A stretch of 64,000 bases of DNA from Patescibacteria group bacterium (GTDB taxonomy: Bacteria; Patescibacteriota; Minisyncoccia; Phycocordibacterales; JAKAEA01). The notes below the pieces were generated by a model, which saw only the letters and a list, made by a program, of their open reading frames with translations, ran no database searches and was not told the origin of the DNA. The stretch is from NCBI GenBank assembly GCA_040387855.1, contig JAZKCY010000001.1, positions 189,857-253,856 on the forward strand. Direction: 5' to 3'. Position 1 is the stretch's first letter; every line of letters begins with the position of its first letter. Shown here one piece after another: positions 6,645 through 23,701 of this stretch. Both the position numbers and the translations under genes were made by a program.

Positions 6645-6912
6645 GCCGTTGTAGCTCAGTTGGTAGAGCACGTCATTGGTAAACAAAAATTGCCCTTCAT
6701 TTTGGAAACGAAATGATGAAGCCCGAATTACGGTTAATATCCATTTATATGGACAAGACCGTGGCGAGAAATCGCCCGAACGACTGACAAGGGGCGCTAA
6801 ACCGAAAAGGTATGCGCAAGATACAGTCTAATCCTTCTATAAGCCTTCTGGGGCGAAATTAAGGTATTAATGAATGACGAGGTCGACGGTTCAATCCCGT
6901 CCAACGGCTCCA
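6645..6912 (+). tRNA. tRNA-Thr (GGT) interrupted in the anticodon loop by a ~192 nt intron; CCA encoded
   Basis: The 5' exon is GCCGTTG...CGTCATTGGT(AA). The 3' exon is (AA)TGACGAGGTC-GACGG-TTCAATC-CCGTC-CAACGGC-T-CCA. Together they make a canonical cloverleaf with anticodon GGT. Confidence 0.75.
6681..6872 (+). ncRNA. group I-like self-splicing intron in the tRNA-Thr anticodon loop
   Basis: The exon ends in T and the intron ends in G (omega G). AAGATACAGTCT matches the group I S element consensus AAGAUAUAGUCY, and an upstream GACTG pairs with the CAGTC inside it (P7). Confidence 0.55.
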
Positions 6913-6955
6913 CTAAAAATAAAAACACTGCATAAGATATGTAGTGTTTTTATTT

Positions 6956-7852
6956 ATGAAAGATATAAAGATTTTGGCTCAAAAGTTTTATGATTATTCT
7001 ATTTATATTAGAGGATATTCACCAGAAACAGTAAAAAGGTATAGGCAGATTATTAACTTCTATTGTAGATTTTCCCAGATTACAAATATTGAGCAAGTTA
7101 GTGAAAAGAGTATTCAGGAACTCTTCTTATATGGCAGGACTCAAAGACAATGGCGGACAAATACCCACATTGTTTTTCATATTTCTCTAAATGTATTTTT
7201 CAGATGGTGTATTCAAGGTGGATATATAAAAATAAATCCAACAGAAAATATGGAGGTCCCTAAAGTTGAAAAGAGATTACCGCCCAAACTGACAAAACAA
7301 GATACATTAAAATTACTTGAGGTTGTCTATAATTATCCCTACGATTATAGGTATCTTAAGTATCGTAACCACGCAATATTTTCTACATTTATTTTTGCAG
7401 GACTACGTAAAAAAGAATTATTAGAATTGAAACTCTCTGATGTAGATATAGAAAATCTTACTATCTTTATCCGCCAAGGTAAGGGAAACAAAGATAGGGT
7501 GGTACCAATGACGTATACATTGGCCCAGACTCTTAAGGTATATATGAGTGAACGAAAAAGGCTGAATAAAACATGTCCACATTTCTTTGCATCCCTTAAC
7601 CGTAATATCGGGTTTACAAACATTGGATTAAGGAGATTGGTAAACAAAATCTGTATAGCTTCAGATATAAAGTTTACTATTCATAAGCTTAGACATACGT
7701 TTGCTACTCTTATGCTAGAAGGAGGTTGTGATATTTATAGTTTATCCAAGATGATGGGCCATAGTGACATCAAGACTACAACCATCTATCTCGCTGCAAG
7801 TGCTGAGCATTTGAGAATCCAAATAAGGAAACATCCCTTGAATAATTTATGA
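6956..7852 (+). CDS. tyrosine site-specific integrase/recombinase
   Basis: Catalytic-domain motifs HKLRHTFAT and GHSDIKTTTIYL (R..HxxR..Y) are present. It is adjacent to the tRNA attachment site. A GTG at 6944 lies inside the tRNA terminator hairpin, so the ATG at 6956 is preferred. Confidence 0.85.
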   Translation: MKDIKILAQKFYDYSIYIRGYSPETVKRYRQIINFYCRFSQITNIEQVSEKSIQELFLYGRTQRQWRTNTHIVFHISLNVFFRWCIQGGYIKINPTENMEVPKVEKRLPPKLTKQDTLKLLEVVYNYPYDYRYLKYRNHAIFSTFIFAGLRKKELLELKLSDVDIENLTIFIRQGKGNKDRVVPMTYTLAQTLKVYMSERKRLNKTCPHFFASLNRNIGFTNIGLRRLVNKICIASDIKFTIHKLRHTFATLMLEGGCDIYSLSKMMGHSDIKTTTIYLAASAEHLRIQIRKHPLNNL

Positions 7853-8046
7853 AATCATTGAGCAATTTTATTATTATGTAAAAATGTGTTATCGTTTCCG
7901 TCTTTAGTAATGAATTAAAAGAACTTGTTTTTAAGTCGGGCATTCTGTATACTATAAATGATTATATGGATCAGCTCTCTAATTCAAGTGTAGTAAATAT
8001 TTAGCCAAGATATAATTGGTGGGCTTTTTACTTTAGTTGTAATTTT

Positions 8047-8923
8047 ATGAAAAAATTCATTCAAAAAATATTGACAGGTACTAGATCATCTCAAAATGCT
8101 GATTTGCTTAATGAGTTTATTCAAACACAACAAGATATAAAGAAATTACCTGCCTTTTCTAACTTAGAAAAAGTTCAATTTGATCAAGATGTATCAATCG
8201 GTCATCTTTATTATTCAAGCAAAATAGAAGGTACCCATCTTGATGAAAAACGATTGAATCAAGCAATTCATGCAAAAAGAGTTTGAAAGAGCAACAGGAA
8301 AGACCGATTTGGAAAACAGAGAAGCATCTGGCTTTTGGAAAGCAATTACTTTGTCAAATGATATAGGTCAAGGGGATCAAGAAATTAATCTCGAAGTAAT
8401 TTTAAGTCTCAATCGATGTATTTTAGAGCATGCTATACCAGAAGCAGCTGGAAAACTAAGAGTAACTGGGGAGGATATACTTCCCCTTGAATGTGTAGAG
8501 CCTCCACCTGGATCTATGGTTAGAGAGAAAATGTATCAGTTTGAGAAAGATTTAAAACACAAAATTTACATAGTTCCTTTAAGGTGCCCTAAGCCAAATA
8601 ATCCTAAACACTATAAAAAGTGGGTAGATAGTGTTTTTGACCTTGCAGCATGGGTTCAGCATAGCTTAGTAGCAATACATCCCTTTTCAGAAGGGAATGG
8701 AAGGACTGCACGTCTTATGACTAATATTATTCTCAGAAGATACAATTTTCCTCCAACAGATGTGAAAATTGAATCTGATGACAAAGCAAAATATTTAAAT
8801 GCATTATGTCAAATTGATATGTATACTGATTATAAACCGTTAAAAGATCTGATACTAAAAGGTGCCCTGGCTACATTGCAAAAAGAAAGAGACATGAAAA
8901 GAAGAAAGCAAGCAGGTCAATAA
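8047..8923 (+). pseudogene. Fic/Doc-family protein split by a frameshift in an A5 run (two ORFs, 8047-8286 and 8270-8923)
   Basis: ORF1 carries the Fic N-terminal SSKIEGTHL motif and ORF2 the core HPFSEGNGRTARL. The two frames overlap at CATGCAAAAAGAG. Confidence 0.6.
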
Positions 8924-9101
8924 TTCATGATACCTTATTTTGGGTCGACGTAAGATTCAAGCTTATCTCGACGTCTAAGCTTGTAGTTATGTTGGTTTTA
9001 AAATAGTGTTAGAAATATGGATGTGTGTTACAATCTCTACTATTCTACATACAAATATAAGTACAGTAGCGATTGGAAAAAATTAAAGGTAAAATCAAAA
9101 T

Positions 9102-9464: not shown

Positions 9465-10160
9465 ATGACATTAGTTATAGGATTAAAAGCCAAAGATGGA
9501 GTTGTAATCGCCTCTGATAGCAGAGCAAGTTCTACTATCACTAGTAATGATACTGTTCAAAAGATTTTTAAACTTGGAGATCATAGTGCAATTGGTATTG
9601 CTGGTGATGGTGGTTTGGCAATGTACTTTCTTGATCAAATAAGAGCTGGTTTAAATCATGGAACAGGGATTTCAGATTTGGCTGAACAAGTTAGAATAAA
9701 AGGTAAAAACACCTTCAATGACTTTTTCGAACATTTATTGCCAGATAAAAGACCTTCACTTTCTTTGTTATTAATTGGTTATACCACTGATGGTAAGCCT
9801 GAGATGTACACTCTCCAAAGTGGAGACAATTTTGTGCCGAGAAAAGGTGTTACAGGATTTGAATGTATAGGGGTTCCTTATATTGCAGATTATTTACTTA
9901 ATCGTCTTTATGAATCAGATATAAAAATTGATGCAGGGGCAGAGATGTCGGTTTTGTGTATACAAGAGACATCTTCTCAGGATAGAGGTGTCGGAGGTCC
10001 TACTAGAATTGCAACATTTTCTGCGACTAAACAATTTGAAGAGATGTCCAAATCAGATATCGATAAGCTAAAGCAAAAAGCTGAGCAATTTCAGATTAGT
10101 CAAAAGAATCGTTTCTACCCTGAAGATCCAAATTCTGGTATATCTGCGCCTACAGTATAG
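9465..10160 (+). CDS. Ntn-hydrolase of the proteasome beta-subunit/HslV family
   Basis: Begins MTLVIGLKAKDGVVIASDSRAS, so Thr sits directly after the initiator Met. GVVIASDSRAS matches the proteasome/HslV GxVIAADTRxT block, and Asp17 and a Lys near position 33 are present. It is 231 aa with a ~50 aa C-terminal extension. Confidence 0.65.
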   Translation: MTLVIGLKAKDGVVIASDSRASSTITSNDTVQKIFKLGDHSAIGIAGDGGLAMYFLDQIRAGLNHGTGISDLAEQVRIKGKNTFNDFFEHLLPDKRPSLSLLLIGYTTDGKPEMYTLQSGDNFVPRKGVTGFECIGVPYIADYLLNRLYESDIKIDAGAEMSVLCIQETSSQDRGVGGPTRIATFSATKQFEEMSKSDIDKLKQKAEQFQISQKNRFYPEDPNSGISAPTV

Positions 10161-10440: not shown

Positions 10441-10818
10441 CTATTTTACCTTTCTAAATATAGAAAACCATTTCCTAGGTATCTTTTGATGGTGTTCAAG
10501 TAGTCTTGATTCGGTAGTAACAGAAGAAATATTTAATTCCTGTAAGACTTTCGGTTCTAAACTATCTGCAATTGAGCGAAAAGCACAAGCTAGGGTTTCT
10601 GTGGTGATCGTTTGATAATAGAATCGAGAACCCTGCTTACGACACTTTACAAGACCTCTTTTGTATAGCTTATTGATGAGTAGATAAACAGTTGGTCGAG
10701 GAATACAAGTGTCTAAGCTCAGGGAGGATAAACTTTTATTTGAAGAGTTAATCGACTGTAAAACAGCGTTCTCTTTATCTGATAATCCAAGAAGGTTTTT
10801 TTGCTCCTCAGTAAACAT
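10441..10818 (-). CDS. small winged-helix DNA-binding regulator-like protein
   Basis: 125 aa with a helix-turn-wing pattern (PTVYLLINKLYKRGLV...GSRFYY). It is oriented divergently from the RHS gene. Confidence 0.4.
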   Translation of the reverse strand: MFTEEQKNLLGLSDKENAVLQSINSSNKSLSSLSLDTCIPRPTVYLLINKLYKRGLVKCRKQGSRFYYQTITTETLACAFRSIADSLEPKVLQELNISSVTTESRLLEHHQKIPRKWFSIFRKVK

Positions 10819-11057: not shown

Positions 11058-14000
11058 GTGAACCAATCATTTTCACGGGAGCGACAGGGAAGAAACTTAA
11101 CAAACGTAATTGTTGGGTTACTTATCCTCTCATTAGTTTTTAGTAGTCCATTATTAACATTTGCTCAAAGTGTTGATGAAGCTCCTAGTCAGGCTCCTGT
11201 TGAAACTCCAACAAACTCACCAGCAGTTGATACAAATACTATTCCTCTTGATACATCTGAAATTCAAAATGCGATAGAATATAACAATAATAATCAGGAG
11301 GCTGCATTAACAGAGTCAGCTGAAGATTCACCACAGTCTTTAGAAGCAGAAGAGGACCAAAATATAATTGCACTTCCTGATGATGAGTTACAACCAGACT
11401 CACTATTGTCAGATACAGAGACAGGTGTAGATCGATTTCGTGATCCTTCAGCAAATGTTATTAAAAATCAAATATCCAGAAATTTGGCTGGTGCACTTAA
11501 TTATTCATACCCAATAGAAGTGCCTCCAGGAAGGACACAGGCTACAACTCCAAATTTGGAATTGCAATATTCAAGTAGTCCCGATCTTGCAAATGTGTTT
11601 GGCTATGGTTGGTCAGTTAACATTCCATATATCGAAAGAGTCGGAAAGAGAGGAACAGATAAGTTATATACAGGCACCGATTTTAATTCTTCTCTTACAG
11701 GAGAATTGGCATCAACTTCGGCAACAACCTATATCTCCAAAATTGATAATGGAGATTTTTTGAATTACACTTTTCAAAATAATATATGGACGGTTACTGA
11801 TAAATCGGGAAATCAATATACGTTTGGTTCAACAACAGCTGCAAGACAGGATAATGTTGCTAGCTCTACACAAGTTTATAAGTGGATGCTTGAAGATTTT
11901 AGAGATACAAATGGTAATTATATTAAGTATCAGTATTCTAAAGATTCTGGACAAATATATCCTTCATCAATTATTTATTCAGGAAATAATACAACAGACG
12001 GGCCATTTGAAGTTGCTTTCAGTCGAGAGTCTCGAGCTGATGTCTCAACTTCAACACAATCAGCGTTCAGTGTTGTTACAAAAGATAGAATTAATGAAAT
12101 TCAAACAAAATTTAACGGTGATTGGGTAAGGAAATATACACTAGCATATAGTACAGGCGATAATACTGTTCGATCCATATTAACCTCAGTGACACAATCT
12201 TCACGGGATGATTTACTTACAGCTACAACTACACTTCCTGCAACCACATTTACGTATTCAACTTCAACATTATCTTATTCACAAAGTTCTGCTTTTCAAC
12301 CTCCTATATCACTTAATGAAGCTTTTACTGATCCCTATTTCATGAACACTGGGGTAACTGATTATGGCTTGAAGATTGTTGATATAAACGGCGACGGATT
12401 AACTGATATTCTTCAAGCATTTGGTGCTCGATACGGTGGTTCTTGGACAGTTGAATATCACGCCTATATAAATAACGGGAATGGGTACACTGATACACCC
12501 TCTTGGTATTCTCCCGTGGATTTTATGATACAGGCTCAGGATGGTTATCGAATTGACACAGGTGTGGTATTTGAAGATATAAATGGGGATAAATTACCAG
12601 ATCTTATTCAGTCAAGTGATGGTACTCATGGTTGTGGTTGTTTTGGTTCCCCTTGGATTGAACCTGTAAAAAAGGTATATATAAATACTGGATCTGGTTT
12701 TGCAACGAGTACCGATTGGGTTATACCAGTTTATTTTGTATACAACGCAACACAACAACATACTAGAGATCTAGGTGTGCGAATGGCTGATGTTAATGGT
12801 GATGATTTACCAGATATTCTTGAAGGCCGCACTTATTCAAATGGTTCAGGAGGTACAACAACAGTTAAAAATGTATTTATTAATACTGGAACAGGTTTCG
12901 CTACATCAACAAGTTGGACTCTGCCTGTAGATTTTGTTGATAGCTGGAATCAAAATCGTGGTAATCCCTACCAAGATCTTGGAGTTAGAATTGTGGATAT
13001 TAACTCTGATGGTCTTAATGATATTGTAGAATCGAGCTGCCTTTCTAATGGATCAGTTTACCGTAAGAAAGCATATATAAATTCTGGTACTGGTTTTGTT
13101 GATGATCCAACATGGCATCCTGCTTTATGTTTTGTTACGAGAGATCCTGCCACACCTAACACTTATAGTCTGGTTAATTACATGGATGAGGGGGTACGAT
13201 TTATGGATATCAATGGTGATAGTCTTGTGGATTTTTATAAAAGTACAACTAACGATGCTACTGCGACCTCTACTGCTTATCTAAATACGGGAAAAGGTTT
13301 TAGTTTGCTTAATTCATGGACCCCTGCAACATCAACAATTTATGCATCGGGAAATGATAGAAATGATCGTGCAACGAGATTTGTTGATATAAATGGTGAT
13401 GGAAGAACAGACGTTTTGCAAGGAAGAGGTGATGTGTATCCTAGTCTAAGATACGCATACTTAAGTGCTTCAACAACTCCAGATTTGCTTATAAAAGTTC
13501 AAGAGCCACAGGGTGGTATGACATCAATGTCATACAAAATGTCTGCTCAATACAATAATGCAACCTCATCAAATCCGAATCTCCCACTTAATGTTCGAAC
13601 TGTTGAAACAATTGCTACTAACAATGCCTTTGGAATAGTGGGTACAACTACATATGCATATAATGGAGGACTCTTCTATTTCAATAATGCATTTGATAAG
13701 AAGTTTGCAGGTTTTGCATCAACAACTGAAACTGATGCTGTTGGGAATCTAACAAAATCTTATTTTCACCAGGGGAGTACGACTGATTCAAGTCATGGTG
13801 AGTATCAAGATGATGCTTCAAAAATTGGTAAAGCTTATCGAATTGAAAAATATGATAATGCCAATAATCTCTATCAGAAAATAATTAATAAGTGGGATAA
13901 GTCTGCTCTTTCTAATGGAGCAAACTTTGTGAAGCTTACCCAAACGATTAATTCTGCATATGATGGAACAGTAAATCATAAAGACAAGGCAGAGCAGTAT

Positions 14001-17000: not shown

Positions 17001-18281
17001 CTTACTAAGACAGGCGCAGCTGGTACATATGCATATACTGGTAGTTCAACAGGCTATGCAAATCCTCATGCGGTGACTGCGATTGGATCTGATACCTATG
17101 CATATGATAACAATGGAAATCTTACTTCGGCTCCAGGAATCACTAACTTATGGGATTATCGAAATCGATTAACACAATCTGTCGCTACGAGTACCGTGAC
17201 CTATGCGTACGATCATGCTAATAGTCGAATTAAATATTCAGTAGCATCAACTACAACCTCTTATCCAAATAAGTTCTACAATACAACAGGTGCAACCACT
17301 ACAAAGCACATCTTTGATGATAGAGGTCAGATGATCGCTACACTTGAAGGCTCAAATGCAAGTACAACGGTTCATTATACTCATACTGATCATCTTTCTG
17401 GATCAAATGTTATTACGAATTCATCTGGTATCTTAGAACAATTGACGGATTACTATCCTTACGGTAATGTTCGCTTAGATGAAAGGACTGGAGCGTTTAA
17501 TGAGCAGAGGAAGTATGCAGGTAGTGAGTTTGACGGTGATACAGCGTATAACTATATGCAAGCTAGGTATTATGATAGTAATAGTGGAAGGTTTATTTCT
17601 CAGGATTCTATATTTCTTAATATGGGAAATGAAAATGACTTCCTTTCTGATCCTCAGCAACTAAATAGTTACAGTTACGCGAGAAACAATCCATTAAAAT
17701 ACTATGATCCTGATGGTAATCAGACAGTATCGGCTCCTCTTAATGCAGTTTTTCGATTTTCAGGATCAGCTAGTCTTGCGCAATCACTTGCAATGGCCGA
17801 TGCTATTCTTGCTGGGGGTTCAATTGCGGGTGCAATCGTCAGTGCTGGACCTGTGTTAGTGGGAGGGGGTATAACTGCTGTTCTCGTTTATGCTGTTGTT
17901 ACTACACCTTGGACACCATTAAGTCAAAACCAAAGTACTCCTTCGTTTTCTAGTTCTTTATCACCAACAAGTCTTCCAACCGCAAATTCAAATCCTCTTT
18001 TGGGAACTGGTACAACAGCTGATTTTGGTAATTGGTTTAATTCAATAAACTTATCAAAAACAACAATTACACAAAAACCTGGTAATTTTAACGATGCACA
18101 GAGAGATTTTTGGGCAAGAAATCCAGAGAATGTGCAACATCGACCAAATGGTACAATTACTGGAAATTTACCAAATGGTGACAAAATAAATGTAAGACCA
18201 CAAAGTAGTGATGGTCGACCTACAATTGAGATTCAGAAAGAGGGTGGTGGAGTAGAAAAAATAAGATATGGAAATAAATAA
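11058..18281 (+). CDS. RHS/YD-repeat polymorphic toxin (2407 aa), built as signal peptide, SpvB/TcdB-N-like domain, FG-GAP/beta-propeller repeats, YD-repeat shell with an inserted DUF2341/LamG-like module, RHS core with a DPxG motif, and a variable C-terminal domain
   Basis: N-terminal signal peptide; a SpvB-like block (NVFGYGWSVNIPYIERV); seven VDINGDGLTDIL-type repeats; many YD repeats (YTYDGLGRRLT, YAYDDAGNLTQK, YTYDDLNRPLTE...); LDGNLDEIRIHNVARSDNY (LamG); and the RHS core ...RYYDSNSGRFISQDS...NNPLKYYDPDGNQ. Confidence 0.9.
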   Translation: MNQSFSRERQGRNLTNVIVGLLILSLVFSSPLLTFAQSVDEAPSQAPVETPTNSPAVDTNTIPLDTSEIQNAIEYNNNNQEAALTESAEDSPQSLEAEEDQNIIALPDDELQPDSLLSDTETGVDRFRDPSANVIKNQISRNLAGALNYSYPIEVPPGRTQATTPNLELQYSSSPDLANVFGYGWSVNIPYIERVGKRGTDKLYTGTDFNSSLTGELASTSATTYISKIDNGDFLNYTFQNNIWTVTDKSGNQYTFGSTTAARQDNVASSTQVYKWMLEDFRDTNGNYIKYQYSKDSGQIYPSSIIYSGNNTTDGPFEVAFSRESRADVSTSTQSAFSVVTKDRINEIQTKFNGDWVRKYTLAYSTGDNTVRSILTSVTQSSRDDLLTATTTLPATTFTYSTSTLSYSQSSAFQPPISLNEAFTDPYFMNTGVTDYGLKIVDINGDGLTDILQAFGARYGGSWTVEYHAYINNGNGYTDTPSWYSPVDFMIQAQDGYRIDTGVVFEDINGDKLPDLIQSSDGTHGCGCFGSPWIEPVKKVYINTGSGFATSTDWVIPVYFVYNATQQHTRDLGVRMADVNGDDLPDILEGRTYSNGSGGTTTVKNVFINTGTGFATSTSWTLPVDFVDSWNQNRGNPYQDLGVRIVDINSDGLNDIVESSCLSNGSVYRKKAYINSGTGFVDDPTWHPALCFVTRDPATPNTYSLVNYMDEGVRFMDINGDSLVDFYKSTTNDATATSTAYLNTGKGFSLLNSWTPATSTIYASGNDRNDRATRFVDINGDGRTDVLQGRGDVYPSLRYAYLSASTTPDLLIKVQEPQGGMTSMSYKMSAQYNNATSSNPNLPLNVRTVETIATNNAFGIVGTTTYAYNGGLFYFNNAFDKKFAGFASTTETDAVGNLTKSYFHQGSTTDSSHGEYQDDASKIGKAYRIEKYDNANNLYQKIINKWDKSALSNGANFVKLTQTINSAYDGTVNHKDKAEQYIYNDAAGTLTQKIQLGEVTGSDDGTLSDTGADLFTTTITYATSSPIIIPATEIMVDQSSVKVAEVRHYYDTLSLGSVTKGNKTKIEKWKVSSSYASTTRTFNAYGLVTQELDPRSKATNYVYDIYNMYPATSTNALSQSTSYVYNYLVGKVKQVTDSNGLVNQTTYDGFGRVTEEKQPDLTTPSTLVTKATYAYTDTALQTSVHKVNYLSASSTTNSYNYYDGLGRLIQERKSAEGTNYSVSDTIYNSLGLKASQSLPYFSTGSASTTPTATTALYTRYTYDPLQRVKTVANIVGTTTNTYTPWVVHVEDPRYKAKNYYRDAYNNLIKVDEIDGVTGYATEYQYNGLGKLTKITDGLANVRNFTYDGLGRRLTAQDLHASADTTFGSTTYAYDDAGNLTQKIDANNQTVNYTYDDLNRPLTENYTGAVGTEISYGYDSCVYGVGRLCSATTTDAITQYEYNTEGLQSKETKTLNAVNYITQTQYDRQGNVTNIVYPDSSQVAYTYNTGGLLETVSRKESTDGGFTNVVTNYDYSPLGQVTAIAYQNGVQTTNTYDANELYRLRSKVTTNASSTNLQNIAYTYDAVGNITGITDTSATNGAKTAVYTYDDLNRLSSATVTASSTSGGSWYNSSWGYRVPITASSSKVLEDIKDVYVPLSSLPSGFFANAKSDSCDIRMTKADGTTELAIDLVSASTTGQLHFSTGNSLSTSSSTIFYLYYGNPSASCYASNATYGANNVYDSNTKGVWHLEQNSASTGAIVDSTSNVHHGTMYSNYSANANGTTTGKLGSAAVFDGTNDTIDVPDSSDFEGAATTIEAWAYMDTLPSVKGENEVLVTKKHGSSPWRSYAVMFSNPENRTDGNWNNSSGSTGYAGTYAGSVSANAWHYVTLRQNPSDTSSEVSVRTNASNATTYTADTDGTTYNSNDALRFGADYAGGERLDGNLDEIRIHNVARSDNYITTRYNNMNAPSTFWSVGSQTAAATSSNTSYTENYTYNILGNILTKTGAAGTYAYTGSSTGYANPHAVTAIGSDTYAYDNNGNLTSAPGITNLWDYRNRLTQSVATSTVTYAYDHANSRIKYSVASTTTSYPNKFYNTTGATTTKHIFDDRGQMIATLEGSNASTTVHYTHTDHLSGSNVITNSSGILEQLTDYYPYGNVRLDERTGAFNEQRKYAGSEFDGDTAYNYMQARYYDSNSGRFISQDSIFLNMGNENDFLSDPQQLNSYSYARNNPLKYYDPDGNQTVSAPLNAVFRFSGSASLAQSLAMADAILAGGSIAGAIVSAGPVLVGGGITAVLVYAVVTTPWTPLSQNQSTPSFSSSLSPTSLPTANSNPLLGTGTTADFGNWFNSINLSKTTITQKPGNFNDAQRDFWARNPENVQHRPNGTITGNLPNGDKINVRPQSSDGRPTIEIQKEGGGVEKIRYGNK

Positions 18282-18771
18282 AAATAAATCAAATATTCTA
18301 ATGCCAGAAAAATATAGTAAATGGGAACCAATTCAGGGAATCGAATCCGAACTATGGATAGAAGCACTTCACGATGACTACGAAGGCTTGCGAATTATAG
18401 TTAAGGGTACTAATGAGGCTTCGGCTATGTATAGTATACTTTTTCCAAATTATTATACATATCGTAATACTGATGAATCGTATCGACTCAAGCTTTGGGA
18501 AGAAGGTGAGTTTGAAGACCGTAAGTGGTCACTCTTTTTCATTAAAGCATCAAAATTTATAGATTGGGTTCATGAAGAAAGTGATACTCTGTATAAAAAA
18601 GAAGATATGATGCATTACTTGATTAAGACAGGAGCTGATGTGATTGAAGTTGTCACGAATGGTATCGAACCAAAAGTTATAAAACTTCACGAAAAGGTTC
18701 AGTCTGACCTAGAATCTAATTCATTAGTTAGAAGAGGTAAAAGAGGTAGCTATTTTGATAAAATTGATTAA
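18268..18771 (+). CDS. putative cognate immunity protein for the RHS C-terminal toxin
   Basis: 167 aa cytoplasmic-type ORF that overlaps the RHS stop by 14 nt (translational coupling), which is the canonical toxin-immunity arrangement. Confidence 0.5.
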   Translation: MEINKNKSNILMPEKYSKWEPIQGIESELWIEALHDDYEGLRIIVKGTNEASAMYSILFPNYYTYRNTDESYRLKLWEEGEFEDRKWSLFFIKASKFIDWVHEESDTLYKKEDMMHYLIKTGADVIEVVTNGIEPKVIKLHEKVQSDLESNSLVRRGKRGSYFDKID

Positions 18772-18787: not shown

Positions 18788-18964
18788 AGGTTATATGTCG
18801 CAGCAGTCCTTTACCCACTACATAGTGATCATCTATCTGGATCAAGTATTGTATCAAATGTTTCAGGAAGTATTGAAGAACTTTCAGATTATTATCCATA
18901 CGGAGCTATGAGAATTAGTGATCAGTCTGGATCATTTACTGACCTAAGAAAATATGTATTTTAA
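18788..18964 (+). pseudogene. orphan RHS core remnant (displaced C-terminal fragment)
   Basis: Translates to ...LHSDHLSGSSIVSNVSGSIEELSDYYPYGAMRISDQSGSFTDLRKYVF*, homologous to the HTDHLSGSNVITNSSGILEQLTDYYPYGNVRLDE core of the full-length gene. No start codon, and it ends before a DPxG motif. Confidence 0.6.
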
Positions 18965-18984: not shown

Positions 18985-19431
18985 ATGCATCCATACGAAT
19001 ATAATTTAAGTTTCAGTCTTGTACATCCAAAGAAGAAATTAAGTGAGTTATATAATAGAATTAGTGAAGTTTCTGGATTTTATCCTCGACGAATTTGGAC
19101 TGCAGGAGATAAACGAAAGACCCAATCGGGAGAAGATCTGGAAGGAACATACAAAGAATCATACTGTTATTTTGCTCTAAATAATTCTTTATTAAAAAGT
19201 TCAGAAATTCGTTTGGAAAATAGTCTTGAAGAAGTCTTAGAGAAGCTTTCAGTTTTGAAAAGAGAATTCAAAGAATTTGTTGACGAGGATGGAGTTTTAG
19301 AAATAACCGTTGGGTTTTACGTTGATTCAAATTCTGCTGGAATATTTCATTTTGAATTACTTAGAAAATTCTGTGATTTAGGAATTGGCTTAACTCTTGA
19401 TGTATACTCTTCAGTTAATGAGATGAAATAA
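18985..19431 (+). CDS. hypothetical small protein, candidate orphan immunity protein
   Basis: 148 aa immediately downstream of the RHS core remnant. Acidic, with no TM; the size and context fit an immunity-gene array. Confidence 0.4.
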   Translation: MHPYEYNLSFSLVHPKKKLSELYNRISEVSGFYPRRIWTAGDKRKTQSGEDLEGTYKESYCYFALNNSLLKSSEIRLENSLEEVLEKLSVLKREFKEFVDEDGVLEITVGFYVDSNSAGIFHFELLRKFCDLGIGLTLDVYSSVNEMK

Positions 19432-19434
19432 TTC

Positions 19435-20004
19435 ATGAAATACAAAGTTGAAAGACCCCCATTAACAGGAAACTTTTTCTTGCCTTCAAAAGAAAGTTTA
19501 GTTGAACTTAAACCAGGCAATCTTGTCAAAATTATGATTAGACATGAAGAAGAAGGAGTAGAAAGAATGTGGGTAAAAATAATACAACAGCAAGATATTT
19601 CAGAATGGACTGGGGTTTTAGATAATGATCCTGTAGGTGAAAAAATGAGTGGATTGTTAAAAGCAGGAGATATAGTAATATTTCATCCTCTGGATATCAT
19701 TCAGATCTGGGATGATAAAAAAATTACAAACTGGGAATTTAAAGAAGCAATAAATGCCAGAGTGTTTACTACTCCAGAAATAGCTTCGGGTATAAAACCT
19801 GTTTTATTTGCAATACATGAATTAGATGGCGATTGGCAGTTTTTGCCATCTGAAAAAACTGAGGATAAAAACGCAATTTTTATCCCTTTGAGGTACTTAA
19901 TTGAAAATGATAATACTTTGTCTGAATTGGGTAATCTACCTGTGGGATGGCACGCAAAACGAAAAAGTATTGAGGATTCGTGGATTAGAGAAAGTGAAAA
20001 ATAA
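19435..20004 (+). CDS. DUF2314(YegJ)-like protein, candidate immunity protein
   Basis: 189 aa with ERMWVKI...GVLDNDP, resembling the ERMWVxV...GxLxNxP pattern of DUF2314 proteins that recur in polymorphic-toxin immunity arrays. The start is 3 nt after the previous stop. Confidence 0.45.
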   Translation: MKYKVERPPLTGNFFLPSKESLVELKPGNLVKIMIRHEEEGVERMWVKIIQQQDISEWTGVLDNDPVGEKMSGLLKAGDIVIFHPLDIIQIWDDKKITNWEFKEAINARVFTTPEIASGIKPVLFAIHELDGDWQFLPSEKTEDKNAIFIPLRYLIENDNTLSELGNLPVGWHAKRKSIEDSWIRESEK

Positions 20005-20119
20005 CCTTAACTATATATTTAAATTTTTTATTGCATTAATAAGCGAAAAATTTGACTTGACCCTAATTACTACCTCACATTCAGGTAGACCAAATCCTTA
20101 ATAATAATAATTAACTGAT

Positions 20120-20425
20120 ATGTATATTAAAAAACAATTAGAGGACGGTGGAAATAAAATAATATGGAAAGGCAATGTGTCTTTTCCTGAAAAAATGATT
20201 AATATAATAAGTAAAATAGATACTCGAATTTATCCATTATTAAAAGGGATCGCATCTTACGAGGATACTTATTTTAATTCACAACAGACAAAGGATCTCA
20301 TTGAAGAACTTCAATCGTTTAAAGATTCACTTACTGATGAAAAGGATAAAGAGGAAATAGAAAGCTTAGTAAAATTCGCTAAGGATATAGATATGCAGGA
20401 ACATTTGGTTTTTGTAGGTGATTAA
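20120..20425 (+). CDS. hypothetical small acidic protein (immunity-like)
   Basis: 101 aa located within the immunity-like gene run. Confidence 0.35.
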   Translation: MYIKKQLEDGGNKIIWKGNVSFPEKMINIISKIDTRIYPLLKGIASYEDTYFNSQQTKDLIEELQSFKDSLTDEKDKEEIESLVKFAKDIDMQEHLVFVGD

Positions 20426-20545
20426 ATGCTGTCTAGGTGTTGACCCATTAATTTAAGGGAGGTTGTGCATAAAAATAAATGGCAAATTGTAGAAAAATCT
20501 AATTTGTAAACATACTCTTTTCTATTAGTTTGCTAGAATAAAGTT

Positions 20546-21064
20546 ATGGCAACATTGCGTCAAAAATTGGCTTTTAATAAAACCATTGAAAATCAGGGAA
20601 ATGTTAGTAAAGCTATGAAAGAAGCTGGTTATTCCAGGAGTCACGCTCATAATCCACAATCACTGGTTAAGAGTAAAGGTTTTCAGCAGATGCTTCAAAA
20701 TTATATTCCAGAGCAACGAATTCTTGAGAAAGTTAGTGAGTTGTTTGAAAGGGGAGAAATAGTAAGTCGGACATTTCCTTCAATCCTTGGTTTAGATACC
20801 GTTAAGAAAATGTTTGAAAAGGCAGGATTGACCATTTTAAATTTACGAGAAGTAGGGGATCAAAAAAATGAAATAGAAGTATATTTCATTCAGCCAGATG
20901 CTACATCACAAGATAAGGCTCTCGAAAAATCAATTAAATTGCATGGTTTATATGAGACAGATCATACACATGGGGCTAATGCTAAAGGATTGTCACTTAT
21001 AAGTCTTTTTGAAAAGGTAGAAGAAAGAAGAGCAAATAGGGCAATGAAGAATAAGATTCAATAA
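20546..21064 (+). CDS. phage terminase small subunit-like HTH protein
   Basis: The N-terminus LRQKLAFNKTIENQGNVSKAMKEAGYSRSHAHNPQSLVKSKGFQQML matches the LxxKQxxFxxxYxxxGNxxxAxxxAGYS...A...LLK pattern of phage terminase small subunits. Confidence 0.45.
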   Translation: MATLRQKLAFNKTIENQGNVSKAMKEAGYSRSHAHNPQSLVKSKGFQQMLQNYIPEQRILEKVSELFERGEIVSRTFPSILGLDTVKKMFEKAGLTILNLREVGDQKNEIEVYFIQPDATSQDKALEKSIKLHGLYETDHTHGANAKGLSLISLFEKVEERRANRAMKNKIQ

Positions 21065-21720
21065 GTCTTTATTTGAAAGTAAGAAGTATTATTTAGTTGT
21101 TTAGACACTAGTTCTAATTTTTTTATATGCTCTAATGGGCGCTTGAGGTCCTGACCCTGTGAAATCAGGTTTTCGTAATTTTCTGCTAGCTTATTACCGA
21201 ACACACCGTCTCCAAAAATATCATAGTCTTGTTTAATAAACTTACCCAATCCAAATGGAAAGACTGCATCAAGTTTAGTTGTACCAAAACCTACTGGTAA
21301 GCGACTATGAATATCGTGAAATGGACTAAAGCTGTATCCTTTTGGAATTTTAACTGATCGTCTCGGGTGATATGGATGGAAGTAGAGGATATCCCAGCTT
21401 TTGCCATCAAAGGATACAGTTTCAAATACATCAATAGGATTTGCTATTGCACCTATAGTTACTGATCCAATCCTATGAAATAGTAACGCTGAATTATTTT
21501 TCGTTCTAAGTCTACCAATATATTTAATTTCACCAATAGGTCCATTAACAGGTATAGGATTGGATGCCATTAATCCAAATGAACCATTAGCTCCTTTAAC
21601 TTCGTCACAAACTTCTCCTTCTAGACATATTTTAGAAAACTGTTCAGGAAATTTAAGTAGATCAGCTTTTTGTTCTAGTAAGGACTCATCTTTGATGACT
21701 TTTTTAAAAAGGTTGAACAT
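21058..21720 (-). CDS. hypothetical protein (220 aa)
   Basis: Long ORF with no recognisable motif. It abuts the upstream 101-aa ORF with zero spacing (coupled pair). Confidence 0.45.
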   Translation of the reverse strand: MFNLFKKVIKDESLLEQKADLLKFPEQFSKICLEGEVCDEVKGANGSFGLMASNPIPVNGPIGEIKYIGRLRTKNNSALLFHRIGSVTIGAIANPIDVFETVSFDGKSWDILYFHPYHPRRSVKIPKGYSFSPFHDIHSRLPVGFGTTKLDAVFPFGLGKFIKQDYDIFGDGVFGNKLAENYENLISQGQDLKRPLEHIKKLELVSKQLNNTSYFQIKTY

Positions 21721-22026
21721 TTATTTAATTCCAAACGCATAACCAGCTACAAGTATTATAAGTATTACAAAAATGAGAGTGCTTAACCAGAAGCCCCCCC
21801 AGAAAGCACTTCTTGCATTGGTATACTCAGCCCAGAATGCCATTTCAAACTTCTTGATATTATTTGCTAAAATGAATTCTTCTAAATCCATGTGACTCAT
21901 TTTTCTGAATGAAATCCCTGGATGTTTTATGTGTACACCTTTCTCTACAAGGGTATCAAGTGAAGTCCCAAAGTGAATCCTTGGTCCCGTAAGCTCATTT
22001 ATGATCTTTTGTAAGTCAGGAGGCAT
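21721..22026 (-). CDS. hypothetical protein with a C-terminal transmembrane anchor
   Basis: 101 aa with a C-terminal hydrophobic helix (FWGGFWLSTLIFVILIILVAGYAFGIK). It is the first gene of a two-gene minus-strand cassette. Confidence 0.4.
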   Translation of the reverse strand: MPPDLQKIINELTGPRIHFGTSLDTLVEKGVHIKHPGISFRKMSHMDLEEFILANNIKKFEMAFWAEYTNARSAFWGGFWLSTLIFVILIILVAGYAFGIK

Positions 22027-22126
22027 GTTGATGACTATAAGTATCTATACTCCTACTCTACCACAATTATAATGATACTTATAGTCCGTCGCCTTAAAGT
22101 CATCATCACAATACCCTTAAGGTATT

Positions 22127-22351
22127 ATGATCCCTAAAAACAGCGCTATCTTAAAAAAGTTTGGAGAACGCGTGAGAGATATACGGTTACGAAAAGGAAT
22201 ATCTTCACAGATGACTTTTGCTAATAAAGCTGGACTAGATCGAACCTATATTGGAGGAGTGGAAAGAGGTGAACGAAATGTATCTTTAATCAATATTGAA
22301 AAGATTGCAAAAACTCTTAATGTTAATATTGAAGACTTGTTTAAGTTTTAG
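22127..22351 (+). CDS. XRE-family (Cro/CI-type) HTH transcriptional regulator
   Basis: 74 aa with the HTH_XRE pattern RLRKGISSQMTFANKAGLDRTYIGGVERGERNVSLINIEKIAKTL. Confidence 0.75.
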   Translation: MIPKNSAILKKFGERVRDIRLRKGISSQMTFANKAGLDRTYIGGVERGERNVSLINIEKIAKTLNVNIEDLFKF

Positions 22352-22522
22352 AGAGAATGGAATTATACACATAGTATCAACACATGTTCTTTGACATGAA
22401 ACAGGTTGTTGATACTATATAAATATAACTAAATAGAAAAAAGCTCAGTGAGATGGCTTTCCAGGTTACATAAAAACATGTAACAAGAAAGTTTATCGCT
22501 GGGCTTTTTTTGTGGAAAAAAT

Positions 22523-23470
22523 ATGAAAGAAAATATTTCGGAATTATTTAAAAAATTTATTGAGGACTGTAGGTATATTAAACGGCTTCGTCCAGAAACT
22601 ATTCGTACTTACTCTGAGGCATTTAAAACTTTTATAAAAGTTATGCCAGAAGTGGTCAATGTTAAGTTGCTTACTCGTGAGATGCTAACTCTCTACTTCA
22701 AAAGACTTGAAACAAGAGGGAGAAAGGTTGGAAAAGATACTATTAAAATTGGTGTAAAGGACTCAACAATTAAAACCTATCAGAATAGATTAAATGTGTT
22801 TTTCACATGGCTTGTAAATATGCAACATATAGAAACCAATCCATTTATTGGGATGAAGTTTCCTAATCCAGTATACGAAGATAGTAGAGCATTAGAGCAA
22901 GATAGTATTGATAAAATATTTGCTGCTGTGGCGTTACACTCAATAAATTCACTAATCCATAAGCGAGACATAGCAATACTAAGTCTACTTATGTTCTGTG
23001 GTTTGAGAAGAAATGAGCTTATCTCACTTCAAGTTAATGATGTTGATTTTGAAAATTCAATGTTAGTCATTAAAGGTGAGACATCGAAATCTAAAAAAAC
23101 GCATTCTGTCCCATTACATCCAACTCTAGGAATGCATTTAAAGGATTACTTAAAAGAACGTTGCAAAAAAGAGTATAAAACTCAATATTTAATCATCTCT
23201 ACAAATAGAGATCGAGGATTAAGTAGCGATGGATTGAAACATTGGGTAAAAAGGCTGGTTAAATTATCTGGTGTAAAATTTCATCTCCATAAATTTCGAC
23301 ATACCTTTGCCTGTAACCTAGCTAAAAATAATGTAAGCGTATTCAACATTCAAACGTTGATGGGGCATAAAGATTATAAGATGACGTTATCATATTTGAG
23401 ATCAGTGAAAACTAAGGATCTTAGAGACGAGATTAATAGGTTATACAGTAATGTTGATAATTTTCACTAA
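22523..23470 (+). CDS. tyrosine site-specific integrase (second copy, distinct sequence)
   Basis: HKFRHTFACNLA and GHKDYKMTLSYL catalytic motifs, plus an N-terminal core-binding domain. It lies 190 nt upstream of the partial tRNA repeat. Confidence 0.85.
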   Translation: MKENISELFKKFIEDCRYIKRLRPETIRTYSEAFKTFIKVMPEVVNVKLLTREMLTLYFKRLETRGRKVGKDTIKIGVKDSTIKTYQNRLNVFFTWLVNMQHIETNPFIGMKFPNPVYEDSRALEQDSIDKIFAAVALHSINSLIHKRDIAILSLLMFCGLRRNELISLQVNDVDFENSMLVIKGETSKSKKTHSVPLHPTLGMHLKDYLKERCKKEYKTQYLIISTNRDRGLSSDGLKHWVKRLVKLSGVKFHLHKFRHTFACNLAKNNVSVFNIQTLMGHKDYKMTLSYLRSVKTKDLRDEINRLYSNVDNFH

Positions 23471-23659
23471 ATCTGTCACTATGATGGAAGTCAGCTATTA
23501 TTATCAAATATTGGTTGCAGTGAGTCTCTCAGGAGATTTTTATTTTGAGTTAAAACCTGTAATAAACAGGTCCTCACAACAGTATAGATTTAATGAACTA
23601 AATCGAAATTCTAGCTCTAAAAATATAGCCTTGTAATGGTTTAGACCTCTACCTATTTA

Positions 23660-23701
23660 TTGGTAATGACGAGGTCACCGGTTCAATCCCGGTCAACGGC
23701 T
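23660..23701 (+). repeat. partial tRNA-Thr 3' segment (anticodon loop through acceptor), the attR-like direct repeat
   Basis: TTGGTAATGACGAGGTC-ACCGG-TTCAATC-CCGGT-CAACGGC-T is intronless and has compensatory T-stem changes relative to 6873-6909. There is no 5' half upstream. Confidence 0.65.

What the first reader, a model, noticed from the sequence alone, without database searches (positions are those of the whole stretch)
6873..23701. A tRNA-Thr(GGT)-targeted integrative island with integrases at both ends and toxin cargo
The complete tRNA-Thr gene (6645-6912) is followed directly by a tyrosine integrase. At 23660-23701 a second, intronless copy of the anticodon-loop-to-3' part of the tRNA recurs (core AATGACGAGGTC identical; T-stem compensatory variants GACGG/CCGTC vs ACCGG/CCGGT), preceded by a second, different tyrosine integrase. 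This is the classic attL/attR signature of a site-specific element whose attP carries the tRNA 3' part. The ~16.8 kb between them is all accessory-type: a frameshifted Fic, a proteasome-like protease, a 7.2 kb RHS toxin with immunity genes, a terminase-small-like gene and an XRE regulator. A large toxin-bearing mobile island in an otherwise streamlined small-genome, CPR-like organism is notable. The two integrases suggest either two tandemly integrated modules or a composite element.
Basis: partly seen in the sequence, partly recalled or inferred. Interest (0 to 1): 0.75.

Follow-up and report, generated by a model that had tools for sequence, protein, structure and literature searches.

The report
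tRNA-splitting island carrying its own tRNA
A 17-kb mobile island has cut a threonine tRNA gene of a tiny-genome (Patescibacteria) bacterium in two and carries its own complete, intron-containing copy of that tRNA as a replacement, a strategy shown so far only for some mycobacterial viruses.

Summary
This half and the 3' half at 23660-23701 are the two pieces of one host tRNA gene, split inside the 7-nt anticodon loop (TTGGTAA). Joined in silico, they are 73/73 identical to an intact tRNA gene in a related genome.

The inserted DNA is 6523-23659, about 17.1 kb. Its ends join into a palindromic attP core: ACCTATTT-A-TTGGTAA-G-AAATAGGT. The intron-bearing tRNA-Thr(GGT) at 6645-6912 is not the rebuilt target. 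It is a complete replacement gene carried inside the island, with a covariation-supported group I intron at position 36/37.

Related Patescibacteria loci show the same layout: 5' half, P' arm, full tRNA, int1, cargo, int2, P arm, 3' half. In several, compensatory base differences show that outer halves pair with each other and inner halves with each other. One relative occurs both as a single copy and as a tandem of two identical copies, and the tandem junction is exactly the predicted attP.

The two Xer-like integrases are a conserved pair belonging to one element, not two elements. The closest known mechanism is "tRNA-dependent lysogeny" of actinobacteriophages. This is a new variant of a known kind.

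The parts
6485..6522 (+). 5' half of the split host tRNA-Thr(GGT), acceptor through anticodon loop. This is the host side of attL. The 7-nt crossover core TTGGTAA is 6516-6522.
   Evidence: It is 38/38 identical to 6645-6682. Joined to 23667-23701 it gives a canonical tRNA-Thr(ggt) that is 73/73 identical to the intact gene at L041:628-700. Rfam gives a partial tRNA hit at 6485-6521.
6524..6532 (+). Core-type site AAATAGGTC on the element's left (P') side of the core. It is the inverted repeat of 23651-23658.
   Evidence: Read directly. AAAYAGGTC occurs only 3 times in the 64 kb, all at the island ends. The equivalent TAAACAGGTC/TAAAAAGGTC abuts the core in L244, L243, L097, L094 and L255.
6595..6619 (+). 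Conserved P' arm box GACCACCTCTTGTAGAAAACAGGTC.
   Evidence: A near-identical box lies ahead of int1 in L246 (GACCACCTCTTGCAGTGAACAGGTC). Similar boxes occur in L244, L094, L083 and L086.
6645..6680 (+). Exon 1 of the element-borne replacement tRNA-Thr(GGT). It ends at U36.
6681..6872 (+). 192-nt group I intron at anticodon-loop position 36/37.
   Evidence: There are 8 homologous introns. 96.7% of cells are paired, against 32-42% when the partners are slid. 33 pairs show compensatory change. The U.G pair at the 5' splice site is 8/8 and the terminal G is 8/8. The P1-P9 architecture includes a P3-P7 pseudoknot. The Rfam group I model does not match it.
6873..6912 (+). Exon 2 of the replacement tRNA-Thr(GGT), with encoded CCA, followed by a hairpin and T-run.
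6944..7852 (+). int1, a Xer-like tyrosine recombinase. The probable start is the ATG at 6956.
   Evidence: Pfam Phage_integrase plus a SAM-like N domain. NCBIfam XerA/XerD/XerC hits fall below cut-off. The R..K..HxxR..H..Y motifs are visible. There are 2351 homologues, the top ones 68-80% identical.
8047..8923 (+). Fic toxin gene (8270-8923, intact) with an overlapping upstream 79-aa ORF (8047-8286) that is a likely antitoxin.
   Evidence: Fic domain E=5e-12. Homologues are about 215 aa and cover only the 217-aa ORF. The HPFSEGNGRTAR and SSKIEG motifs are visible. The antitoxin role is inferred from the known [S/T]xxxE[G/N] motif.
9465..10160 (+). Proteasome-subunit-like protein (cargo).
   Evidence: Pfam Proteasome E=2e-20. 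NCBIfam proteasome models match below cut-off.
10441..10818 (-). TrmB / penicillinase-repressor-like winged-helix regulator (cargo).
11058..18281 (+). 2407-aa RHS/YD-repeat polymorphic toxin with SpvB, FG-GAP and laminin-G regions. The core ends at ..YYDPDGN and is followed by a tail of about 190 aa.
18268..18771 (+). 167-aa ORF overlapping the RHS stop codon. Candidate immunity protein, inferred from position only.
   Evidence: ORF list. No significant family match.
18809..18961 (+). Stop-truncated remnant of an RHS core end (orphan fragment).
   Evidence: An 83-nt stretch within the remnant (18821-18903) is 71% identical to 17382-17464 (family D4). Translation.
18985..22026 (.). Seven ORFs of unknown function: 18985-19431, 19435-20004, 20120-20425, 20546-21064 on the + strand; 21058-21720 and 21721-22026 on the - strand.
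   Evidence: Only weak hits below cut-off: DUF4279, and PHROG terminase small subunit at E=0.003.
22127..22351 (+). XRE/HTH_3 regulator upstream of int2.
   Evidence: An HTH_3 gene is also present near the int pair in L246, L248, L249 and L251.
22523..23470 (+). int2, a second Xer-like tyrosine recombinase, 28% identical to int1.
   Evidence: There are 481 homologues, the top ones 49-59% identical. Catalytic residues are invariant in alignment A1.
23564..23572 (+). P arm site AAACAGGTC.
   Evidence: The same motif lies 90-110 bp upstream of the core in L244, L084, L250, L248, L249 and L097.
23651..23658 (+). Core-type site ACCTATTT on the element's right (P) side. It is a perfect inverted repeat of 6524-6531.
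   Evidence: A random pair of 8-mers in this window is reverse-complementary with frequency 3e-5.
23660..23701 (+). 3' half of the split host tRNA-Thr(GGT). This is the host side of attR. The core TTGGTAA is 23660-23666.
   Evidence: It sits at the ancestral position of tRNA-Thr(GGT), upstream of tRNA-Thr(CGT) and prfB.

Best explanation
**What is shown by sequence**
- Bases 6523-23659 (about 17.1 kb) are one integrative element. It recombined with the host tRNA-Thr(GGT) gene inside the 7-nt anticodon loop (TTGGTAA).
- The element's attP shares only this short core with the gene, so the tRNA is not rebuilt. Its 5' half (6485-6522) and 3' half (23660-23701) are left at the two ends.
- The element supplies a complete tRNA-Thr(GGT) of its own at 6645-6912, about 120 bp inside the left end. 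This copy is interrupted by a group I intron that must be spliced out.
- The recombination module is a conserved pair of Xer-like tyrosine recombinases. They flank attP in the joined form, in the order int2, P arm, ACCTRTTT-core-AAAYAGGT, P' arm, tRNA, int1. After integration they end up at opposite ends of the island.
- The rest is cargo: a Fic toxin with a probable antitoxin, a proteasome-like protein, an RHS toxin module, regulators and unknown ORFs.

**What is inferred**
- Both recombinases take part in the reaction.
- The AAAYAGGTC boxes are their binding sites.
- The host depends on the element's tRNA, which would stabilise the island.
- Precise excision would restore the host gene.
For: 1. 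**Geometry and identity.** The 5' half occurs twice and the 3' half twice, in the order 5'A, 5'B-intron-3'1..., 3'2. 5'A plus 3'2 joined at the core is a canonical tRNA-Thr(ggt), 73/73 identical to the intact gene at L041:628-700.
2. **Palindromic attP.** Joining the island's right and left ends gives ACCTATTT-A-TTGGTAA-G-AAATAGGT, a perfect 8-bp inverted repeat around the loop. The chance frequency is 3e-5. AAAYAGGTC occurs only 3 times in 64 kb, all at the island ends.
3. **Ancestral position.** In about 45 related loci an intact tRNA-Thr(GGT) sits just upstream of tRNA-Thr(CGT)-prfB, which is where 3'2 lies.
4. **Same architecture in independent assemblies.** L097, L243, L244, L255 (Thr-GGT) and L094 (Ala-GGC) all show it, and their joined outer halves are called as tRNAs (L255 read by eye).
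   - In L097 the outer halves pair with each other (acceptor GCCGTTT/AAACGGC, anticodon stem TTTCC/GGAAA). The inner gene pairs with itself (GCCGTTG/CAACGGC, TCTCC/GGAGA).
   - L243 shows the same pattern (CCATA/TATGG outer against CGTC/GACG inner).
5. **Single copy versus tandem.** L255 and L256 are the same element, once as a single copy and once as a tandem of two copies that are 8943/8943 identical.
   - The tandem junction reads right end, one TTGGTAA, left end, which is the predicted attP.
   - The inner tRNA is duplicated with the unit, while each outer half occurs once.
6. **Integrase pairing.** int1 and int2 homologues co-occur in both permutations in L083, L085-L088, L094, L097, L243, L244, L246-L249, L251, L255-L257.
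7. **Intron.**
8. **Precedent for the mechanism.** PMC10865867 describes the same strategy.
Against: - No empty site or excised circle of this particular island was seen. Its flanking proteins occur on only one Logan contig each. The attP string has no hit in IMG/VR.
- Within the window the two 5' halves are identical, so the window alone cannot say which 5' half belongs with which 3' half. That assignment rests on the palindrome and on the relatives.
- Whether tRNA-Thr(GGT) is single-copy in this genome is unknown, because only 64 kb of the 981-kb contig is available.
- Nothing shows that both recombinases are needed, or that the intron splices.
- Many relatives carry the int2-att-int1 module unrecombined inside large scaffolds. 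Tandem arrays can explain this, but that was shown for one element only.
Confidence: 0.87

Rival explanations
1. This is a classical tRNA island: the intron-bearing tRNA at 6645-6912 is the target rebuilt at attL from an island-borne 3' part, and 23660-23701 is the displaced host 3' fragment. The crossover would lie in AATGACGAGGTC.
For: - There is a 44-nt direct repeat between 6873-6916 and 23665-23708.
- int1 lies directly downstream of the tRNA.
- Relatives with a tRNA 3' half inside the att segment exist: L246, L086, L083, L248, L249.
Against: - It leaves the 5' half at 6485-6522 and the palindrome formed by the island ends unexplained.
- The right-hand copy carries the uninterrupted loop ATTGGTAA, which the intron-bearing gene does not have at that position.
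- In L097 and L243 the far 3' half pairs with the upstream 5' half, not with the inner gene.
- The L256 tandem junction contains no tRNA 3' half. It has only the core, and the whole inner tRNA is duplicated with the unit.
Confidence: 0.04
2. Two unrelated elements lie side by side or nested: an int1 element next to the tRNA and an int2 element next to the 3' fragment. The island would be a composite.
For: - The two integrases are only 28% identical.
- L244 carries a third, unrelated integrase inside the island, so accretion does occur.
- The RHS region has its own remnant.
Against: - There is no internal att-like repeat or AAAYAGGTC site between 6620 and 23560 on the + strand in the right context.
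- int1 and int2 homologues co-occur in all 17 informative related loci, in both permutations.
- In L256 the duplicated unit runs exactly from int1 to int2.
Confidence: 0.06
3. The duplicated 5' half is an assembly artefact or a local duplication unrelated to mobility.
For: Short-read Logan contigs of the same sample break exactly at the 43-nt repeat, so the repeat is hard to assemble.
Against: - The same 5'A, about 120 bp, tRNA arrangement recurs in five independent assemblies from other samples and organisms, with diverged sequences.
- The 121-bp spacer carries the conserved arm box.
Confidence: 0.02

Closest known systems
tRNA-dependent lysogeny of actinobacteriophages (Fionnbharth, LeBron, Gaia and others; Guerrero-Bustamante & Hatfull, mBio 2024, PMC10865867)
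   Same: - A tyrosine integrase acts on an attB that overlaps a tRNA gene.
[quoted passage not shown]
- The element carries a cognate tRNA of the same anticodon close to the integrase.
- Close relatives that do rebuild the tRNA coexist with ones that do not.
   Different: - No phage genes are detected here. Relatives carry coupling-protein, relaxase and ArdC genes instead.
- There are two Xer-like recombinases flanking attP instead of one integrase.
- The host is a Patescibacteria bacterium.
- The replacement tRNA in this island and in L097 carries a group I intron.
- Dependence of the host on the element's tRNA is not demonstrated here.
Classical tRNA/tmRNA-targeting genomic islands (Islander/TIGER type; Williams 2002 anticodon-loop sublocation class, from my own knowledge; PMC4383910 abstract)
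   Same: - Integration is site-specific by tyrosine recombinase, with the crossover in the anticodon loop flanked by the symmetric anticodon stem.
- A displaced tRNA fragment marks the far end of the island.
   Different: - The defining restoration of the target by an island-borne fragment at the junction is absent.
- A separate full-length gene substitutes for the target.
[quoted passage not shown]
   Same: - A small group I intron without a homing endonuclease sits in the anticodon loop and is missed by standard annotation tools.
- Their Table 1 lists Thr(GGU) 36/37 insertions called by tFind and ARAGORN in three genomes.
   Different: - Those Thr(GGU) cases were 'Not detected' by their Infernal-based protocol and were not analysed further.
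- Here the intron is supported by covariation in 8 sequences, and it sits in a tRNA carried by a mobile element as well as in chromosomal copies.
XerC/XerD-type paired tyrosine recombinases
   Same: - Two paralogous recombinases of about 300 aa each have a SAM-like N domain and no arm-binding domain.
- Their best NCBIfam matches are XerA, XerD and XerC.
- The core site is palindromic with a 7-9-bp spacer.
   Different: - Scores are far below the equivalog cut-offs (178 against 220; 167 against 330).
- The genes flank their own site on mobile DNA and act on tRNA genes, not on a dif site.
- Heteromeric action is only inferred.

Membership tests
Classical tRNA-restoring genomic island (Islander type) | A tyrosine integrase is encoded at one end of the island. 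| tested here: met
   int1 at 6944-7852 and int2 at 22523-23470 both match Pfam Phage_integrase.
Classical tRNA-restoring genomic island (Islander type) | The target tRNA is regenerated at one junction by an island-borne fragment, and the displaced fragment lies at the other end. | tested here: not met
   attL reads ..CGTCATTGGTAA|GAAATAGGTC.., so no 3' half follows the core. The only intact gene is a separate full copy 122 bp further in.
tRNA-dependent lysogeny-type integration (PMC10865867) | [quoted passage not shown] | tested here: met
   The shared core is (A)TTGGTAA, 7-8 bp. The L256 tandem junction shows attP with the core only.
tRNA-dependent lysogeny-type integration (PMC10865867) | [quoted passage not shown] | tested here: met
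   The spliced 6645-6680 plus 6873-6912 is tRNA-Thr(ggt). The same holds in L097, L243, L244 and L255, and for tRNA-Ala(GGC) in L094.
tRNA-dependent lysogeny-type integration (PMC10865867) | The element is a temperate phage. | tested here: not met
   No phage structural or lysis genes were found. The only hit is a sub-threshold PHROG terminase-small match at E=0.003. No close int2 relatives occur in IMG/VR or in GenBank phages.
tRNA-dependent lysogeny-type integration (PMC10865867) | The element's tRNA is required for survival of cells that carry the element. | not testable with these tools
   This needs the whole genome, to exclude another tRNA-Thr(GGU), and genetics.
Group I intron | The 5' exon ends in U paired to G in P1, the intron ends in G, and an internal guide pairs with both exons. 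| tested here: met
   The U36.G54 pair is 8/8 and the terminal G is 8/8. The guide AUUGCC is complementary to GGU|AAU.
Group I intron | A conserved core of P3-P9 with a P3/P7 pseudoknot, supported by covariation. | tested here: met
   There are 69 pairs and 96.7% of cells are paired, against 32-42% with slid partners. 33 pairs show compensatory change. P4, P7 and P3 are invariant, so they give no information by covariation.
Group I intron | Match to the curated family model (Rfam Intron_gpI). | tested here: not met
   There is no hit at gathering threshold or at E<=10. PMC13011429 reports the same failure for Thr(GGU) 36/37.
Group I intron | Self-splicing activity. | not testable with these tools
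   This needs in vitro transcription and a splicing assay.
XerC/XerD chromosome-dimer resolvases | Score above the NCBIfam equivalog cut-off. | tested here: not met
   int1 scores 167 bits against XerD (cut-off 330). int2 scores 115 bits.
Integrative conjugative or mobilizable element | A relaxase and/or coupling protein is encoded in the element. | tested here: not met
   None was found in the window island. Such genes are present next to the same int pair in L086, L246, L248, L249, L251 and L257.
Rhs/YD polymorphic toxin | A YD/RHS repeat shell ending in a DPxG-type motif, followed by a variable C-terminal domain and a downstream immunity gene. | tested here: inconclusive
   RHS_repeat matches at E=1e-21 and TEN_YD-shell is present. 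The core ends at ..YYDPDGN and a tail of about 190 aa follows. The toxin and immunity identities have no family match.

The most novel reading that the evidence does not exclude
Patescibacteria harbour a phylum-wide, so far undescribed family of integrative elements. Some members are small islands and some are conjugative-like.
- Their integration module is a heteromeric pair of Xer-like recombinases flanking attP.
- They recombine within the 7-nt anticodon loop of various tRNA genes (Thr-GGT, Thr-CGT, Ala-GGC, Ala-TGC, Lys-CTT, Lys-TTT).
- One lineage has stopped rebuilding the target and instead carries a full replacement tRNA. In genomes with single-copy tRNAs this makes the host addicted to the element.
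- In this island the group I intron additionally removes the element's own recombination core (TTGGT|AA) from the replacement copy, which would protect that copy from the integrases.
Probability: 0.3. Interest if true: 0.8.

Novelty: new variant of a known kind. Interest (0 to 1): 0.64.

Why it matters
- It extends the 'split the tRNA and bring your own' integration strategy beyond actinobacteriophages, where it was demonstrated in 2024. Here it appears in non-phage islands of the ultra-small Patescibacteria.
- In a genome of about 1 Mb, most tRNAs are likely to be single-copy. Replacing an essential tRNA could then tie the host to the island. That would help explain how large toxin-bearing islands persist in streamlined genomes.
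- It defines a conserved two-recombinase integration module and its att sites: ACCTGTTT, anticodon loop, AAACAGGT, plus the arm boxes. Island boundaries in these poorly annotated genomes could be mapped with them, and they could seed genetic tools for organisms that have almost none.
- It is a caution for annotation. The functional tRNA-Thr(GGU) is invisible to ARAGORN and Rfam, and the pieces that are visible belong to a dead gene.

Tried and rejected
- **Rfam.** Scans at gathering threshold and at E<=10 found no group I hit and only a 20-bit tRNA hit. The intron was therefore established by comparative folding instead.
- **attP in IMG/VR.** An exact search for the predicted attP string gave 0 hits.
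- **Empty-site search.** The right-flank protein (o299) has no relative in GTDB genomes. Exact-protein look-ups of both flank proteins gave one contig each, from the same sample, and neither was an empty-site variant.
- **PrfB-anchored loci.** These gave only 55-69%-identical relatives. That is enough to show the ancestral tRNA order but not a true sibling.
- **int2 profile against IMG/VR.** Nothing above 30% identity. int1 and int2 against GenBank phages and PLSDB plasmids gave nothing above 33%.
- **'Frameshifted Fic'.** Rejected.
- **'Terminase small'.** Not supported.
- **The intron is needed to protect the replacement tRNA from the integrases.** Weakened. L243, L244 and L255/L256 carry intronless replacement tRNAs with an intact TTGGTAA loop, and the tandem in L256 formed without hitting that loop.
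- **int1/int2 as the host's XerC/XerD.** Rejected on scores and context.
- **Other recombinase pairs.** I considered an integron-like capture platform and Tn554-like pairs only from memory and did not test them.

Full report
**1. What is in the sequence**

ARAGORN and Rfam at gathering thresholds find five tRNAs in the window and none at 6645-6912. Reading the sequence shows four pieces of tRNA-Thr(GGT).
- A 5' half, acceptor through anticodon loop, lies at 6485-6522.
- An identical 5' half lies at 6645-6682.
- A 3' half lies at 6873-6912, with encoded CCA.
- A second 3' half lies at 23660-23701, beginning with the uninterrupted loop TTGGTAA.

The repeat finder returns both pairs. One is 43 nt at 98% identity and the other is 44 nt at 86%.

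Tyrosine recombinase genes lie at 6944-7852 (int1) and 22523-23470 (int2). They are 28% identical to each other, and both retain the R, K, HxxR, H and Y catalytic motifs.

**2. The 192-nt insert is a group I intron**

- The insert at 6681-6872 follows U36 and ends in G.
- The sequence AUUGCC near its 5' end is complementary to the ligated exons GGU|AAU, with a U.G wobble at the splice site.
- The precursor folds well below shuffled controls (z = -4.1).
- Homologous inserts at the same position were found in seven other Patescibacteria loci.
- The eight sequences share a consensus structure with the P1, P2, P4-P6, P7, P8 and P9 helices plus the P3 pseudoknot.
- 96.7% of cells are paired, against 32-42% when the partners are slid. 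33 of 69 pairs show compensatory change. None of 500 shuffles reaches the observed values.
- The Rfam group I model does not match.
- A 2026 survey of Patescibacteria tRNA introns lists Thr(GGU) 36/37 insertions in three genomes. Two tRNA tools called them, but the authors' Infernal-based protocol did not (PMC13011429).
- Six of the seven homologues sit in the ordinary chromosomal position with no integrase nearby. The intron is therefore a lineage feature of this tRNA and not a peculiarity of the island.

**3. Which halves belong together**

- Joining 6485-6522 to 23667-23701 through one copy of the loop gives a canonical tRNA-Thr(ggt). It is 73/73 identical to the intact gene at L041:628-700.
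- In about 45 PrfB-anchored relatives the conserved order is tRNA-Met, Met, Asp ... tRNA-Thr(GGT), tRNA-Thr(CGT), prfB, ftsE, ftsX, pyrG. The 3' half at 23660 sits where the intact gene normally sits.
- Joining the island's right end to its left end gives ACCTATTT-A-TTGGTAA-G-AAATAGGT, a perfect 8-bp inverted repeat centred on the loop. Two random 8-mers of this window are reverse-complementary with frequency 3e-5.
- AAAYAGGTC occurs three times in the 64 kb, at 6524, 6611 and 23564. All three are within about 100 bp of the two cores.
- These facts fit integration by crossover inside the loop, between an attB made of the anticodon stem-loop and an attP that shares only the loop.

**4. Relatives settle it**

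Int2 has 481 homologues and Int1 has 2351, mostly unnamed Patescibacteria proteins. I fetched loci around several of them.

Five further integrated elements have the layout of the window: 5' half | core | about 120-bp arm | complete tRNA | int1 | variable cargo | int2 | arm | core | 3' half.
- These are L097, L243, L244 and L255, which target Thr-GGT, and L094, which targets Ala-GGC and carries its replacement tRNA-Ala on the other strand inside the element.
- For four of these loci and for the window, the joined outer halves are called as a tRNA. L255 was read by eye and was not part of that test.
- In L097 the outer halves have acceptor GCCGTTT/AAACGGC and anticodon stem TTTCC/GGAAA. The inner gene has GCCGTTG/CAACGGC and TCTCC/GGAGA.
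- In L243 the stems are CCATA/TATGG (outer) and CGTC/GACG (inner).
- These compensatory differences show nesting: a split gene outside and a whole gene inside.

The clearest case is one element found in two states in the same groundwater series.
- L255 is a single copy, with 23 similar places not shown.
- L256 is a tandem of two copies that are 8943/8943 identical, with 4 similar places.
- The junction between the tandem copies reads ...ACGTTACTTTTTTC-TTGGTAA-TAAAAAGGTCGCGGG.... That is right end, one core, left end.
- The inner tRNA is present twice and each outer half once.
- This is the predicted attP. It shows that the mobile unit runs from the P' arm through the tRNA, int1, the cargo and int2 to the P arm.

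**5. The two integrases are one module**

- Homologues of int1 and int2 co-occur in all 17 related loci with enough flank.
- They lie either at opposite ends of an integrated element, or adjacent in the order int2, att, int1.
- Both are Xer-like, with best NCBIfam matches to XerA, XerD and XerC far below cut-off. Neither has an arm-binding domain.
- Int1 is markedly better conserved (68-80% identity among the top hits) than Int2 (49-59%).
- That they act together, perhaps each on one kind of half-site, is an inference.

In several adjacent-pair loci the att segment contains the core plus a tRNA 3' half: Lys-CTT, Lys-TTT or Ala-TGC.
- These are the classical restoring design. They sit among coupling-protein, relaxase, ArdC and SSB genes.
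- The family therefore includes both restoring and replacing members and targets several tRNAs. Hatfull's group reported the same pattern for actinophage integrases.

**6. Mechanism, shown and inferred**

- *Shown by sequence:* the position of the crossover, the non-restoration of the target, the presence of a cognate full-length tRNA in the unit, the pairing of the recombinases, and the existence of an attP junction in a relative.
- *Inferred:* the AAAYAGGTC boxes at the core and about 90 bp to each side are recombinase binding sites.
- *Inferred:* the intron is spliced to give the only functional tRNA-Thr(GGU).
- *Inferred:* the host therefore depends on the island.
- *Inferred:* precise excision would regenerate the host gene. 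In the window both halves are still identical to a functional relative, which suggests a recent event. L244 has acquired a C.A mismatch in the anticodon stem.

**7. Cargo**

- The island carries an intact Fic toxin with an HPFSEGNGRTAR motif. Its homologues are about 215 aa, so it is not frameshifted.
- The overlapping upstream 79-aa ORF carries an SxxxEG motif typical of Fic inhibitory helices. I read it as a probable antitoxin, from my own knowledge of that motif.
- Other cargo is a proteasome-like protein, a winged-helix regulator and a 2407-aa RHS protein with a C-terminal tail of about 190 aa. A stop-truncated RHS remnant lies downstream. There are also an XRE regulator and seven ORFs without family matches.
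- No relaxase, coupling protein or phage structural gene was found in this island.
- Cargo is not shared with the sibling elements.

**8. Comparison with what is known, and novelty**

- The closest described mechanism is tRNA-dependent lysogeny (PMC10865867). Three of its defining features are met here: a short core, no reconstruction of the tRNA, and a cognate tRNA on the element.
- The 'temperate phage' feature is not met, and the dependence of the host cannot be tested here.
- The classical island definition fails on restoration of the target.
- Searches of the held literature for Patescibacteria integrases or islands found only general island counts. None gave an att-level description or mentioned paired recombinases.
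- I therefore rate this as a new variant of a known kind.

**9. What remains open**

- The adjacent int2-att-int1 state occurs inside scaffolds of 0.2-0.8 Mb. Tandem arrays, as in L256, can produce it, but I could not verify that with 10-kb flanks.
- L085 has the att segment inverted relative to L086.
- No excised form or empty site of this particular island was found.

Noticed in passing
window 6645-6912; also L030:3276-3536, L014:1361-1625, L055:8551-8816, L042:8853-9108, L015:9218-9480(-), L066:9399-9665(-): tRNA-Thr(GGT) genes with a group I intron of 180-195 nt at position 36/37 are common in these Patescibacteria, at the normal chromosomal site next to tRNA-Thr(CGT). ARAGORN and the Rfam tRNA and group I models do not call them, so such genomes would look as if they lack tRNA-Thr(GGU).
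   Followed up: yes
window 8047-8923: The Fic gene is intact (217 aa, like its homologues). The overlapping upstream 79-aa ORF carries an S-S-K-I-E-G motif, which suggests a two-gene Fic toxin-antitoxin pair rather than a frameshifted gene.
   Followed up: partly
window 18809-18961: A stop-truncated copy of the last RHS core repeat lies downstream of the main RHS gene. Its 83-nt core (18821-18903) is 71% identical at the nucleotide level to 17382-17464. It looks like an orphan remnant left by toxin-tip replacement.
   Followed up: partly
L248, L252-L254, L086, L246/L247, L249, L251, L257: The int2-att-int1 module sits unrecombined between coupling-protein, ArdC, relaxase, SSB and methylase genes, some of it in scaffolds of 0.2-0.8 Mb. 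One identical Int2 protein (P0021) is on 21 contigs, all with this layout. Whether these are tandem arrays, elements integrated elsewhere, or episomes is unresolved.
   Followed up: partly
L085:2040-2439 versus L086:10918-11317: The whole att segment, with both arm boxes and an identical tRNA-Lys(CTT) 3' half, is inverted relative to the two integrase genes in one locus compared with the other.
   Followed up: no
L256:621-18943 versus L255: The same 9.4-kb element is present as a single copy in most samples of a groundwater series and as a perfect tandem duplicate in others. This is population-level evidence that the family is currently active.
   Followed up: yes
L094:6077-6150: In the element that splits tRNA-Ala(GGC), the replacement tRNA-Ala(GGC) lies on the opposite strand in the middle of the element. 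In the Thr-GGT elements the replacement lies next to int1.
   Followed up: partly
window 6480-6522 / 6640-6682; L001, L002: Short-read (Logan) contigs from SRR26324620 end and start exactly at the duplicated 43-nt tRNA 5' half. Fragmented assemblies would therefore hide the island's left junction.
   Followed up: yes
L244:4591-5487: A third tyrosine recombinase, only about 22-25% identical to int1 and int2, lies inside one sibling element. It hints at secondary insertions within these islands.
   Followed up: no
Int1 versus Int2 homologue lists: Int1 is much more conserved across elements (68-80% identity among the top 120 hits) than Int2 (49-59%). One partner may be a conserved catalytic subunit and the other may determine target specificity.
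   Followed up: no
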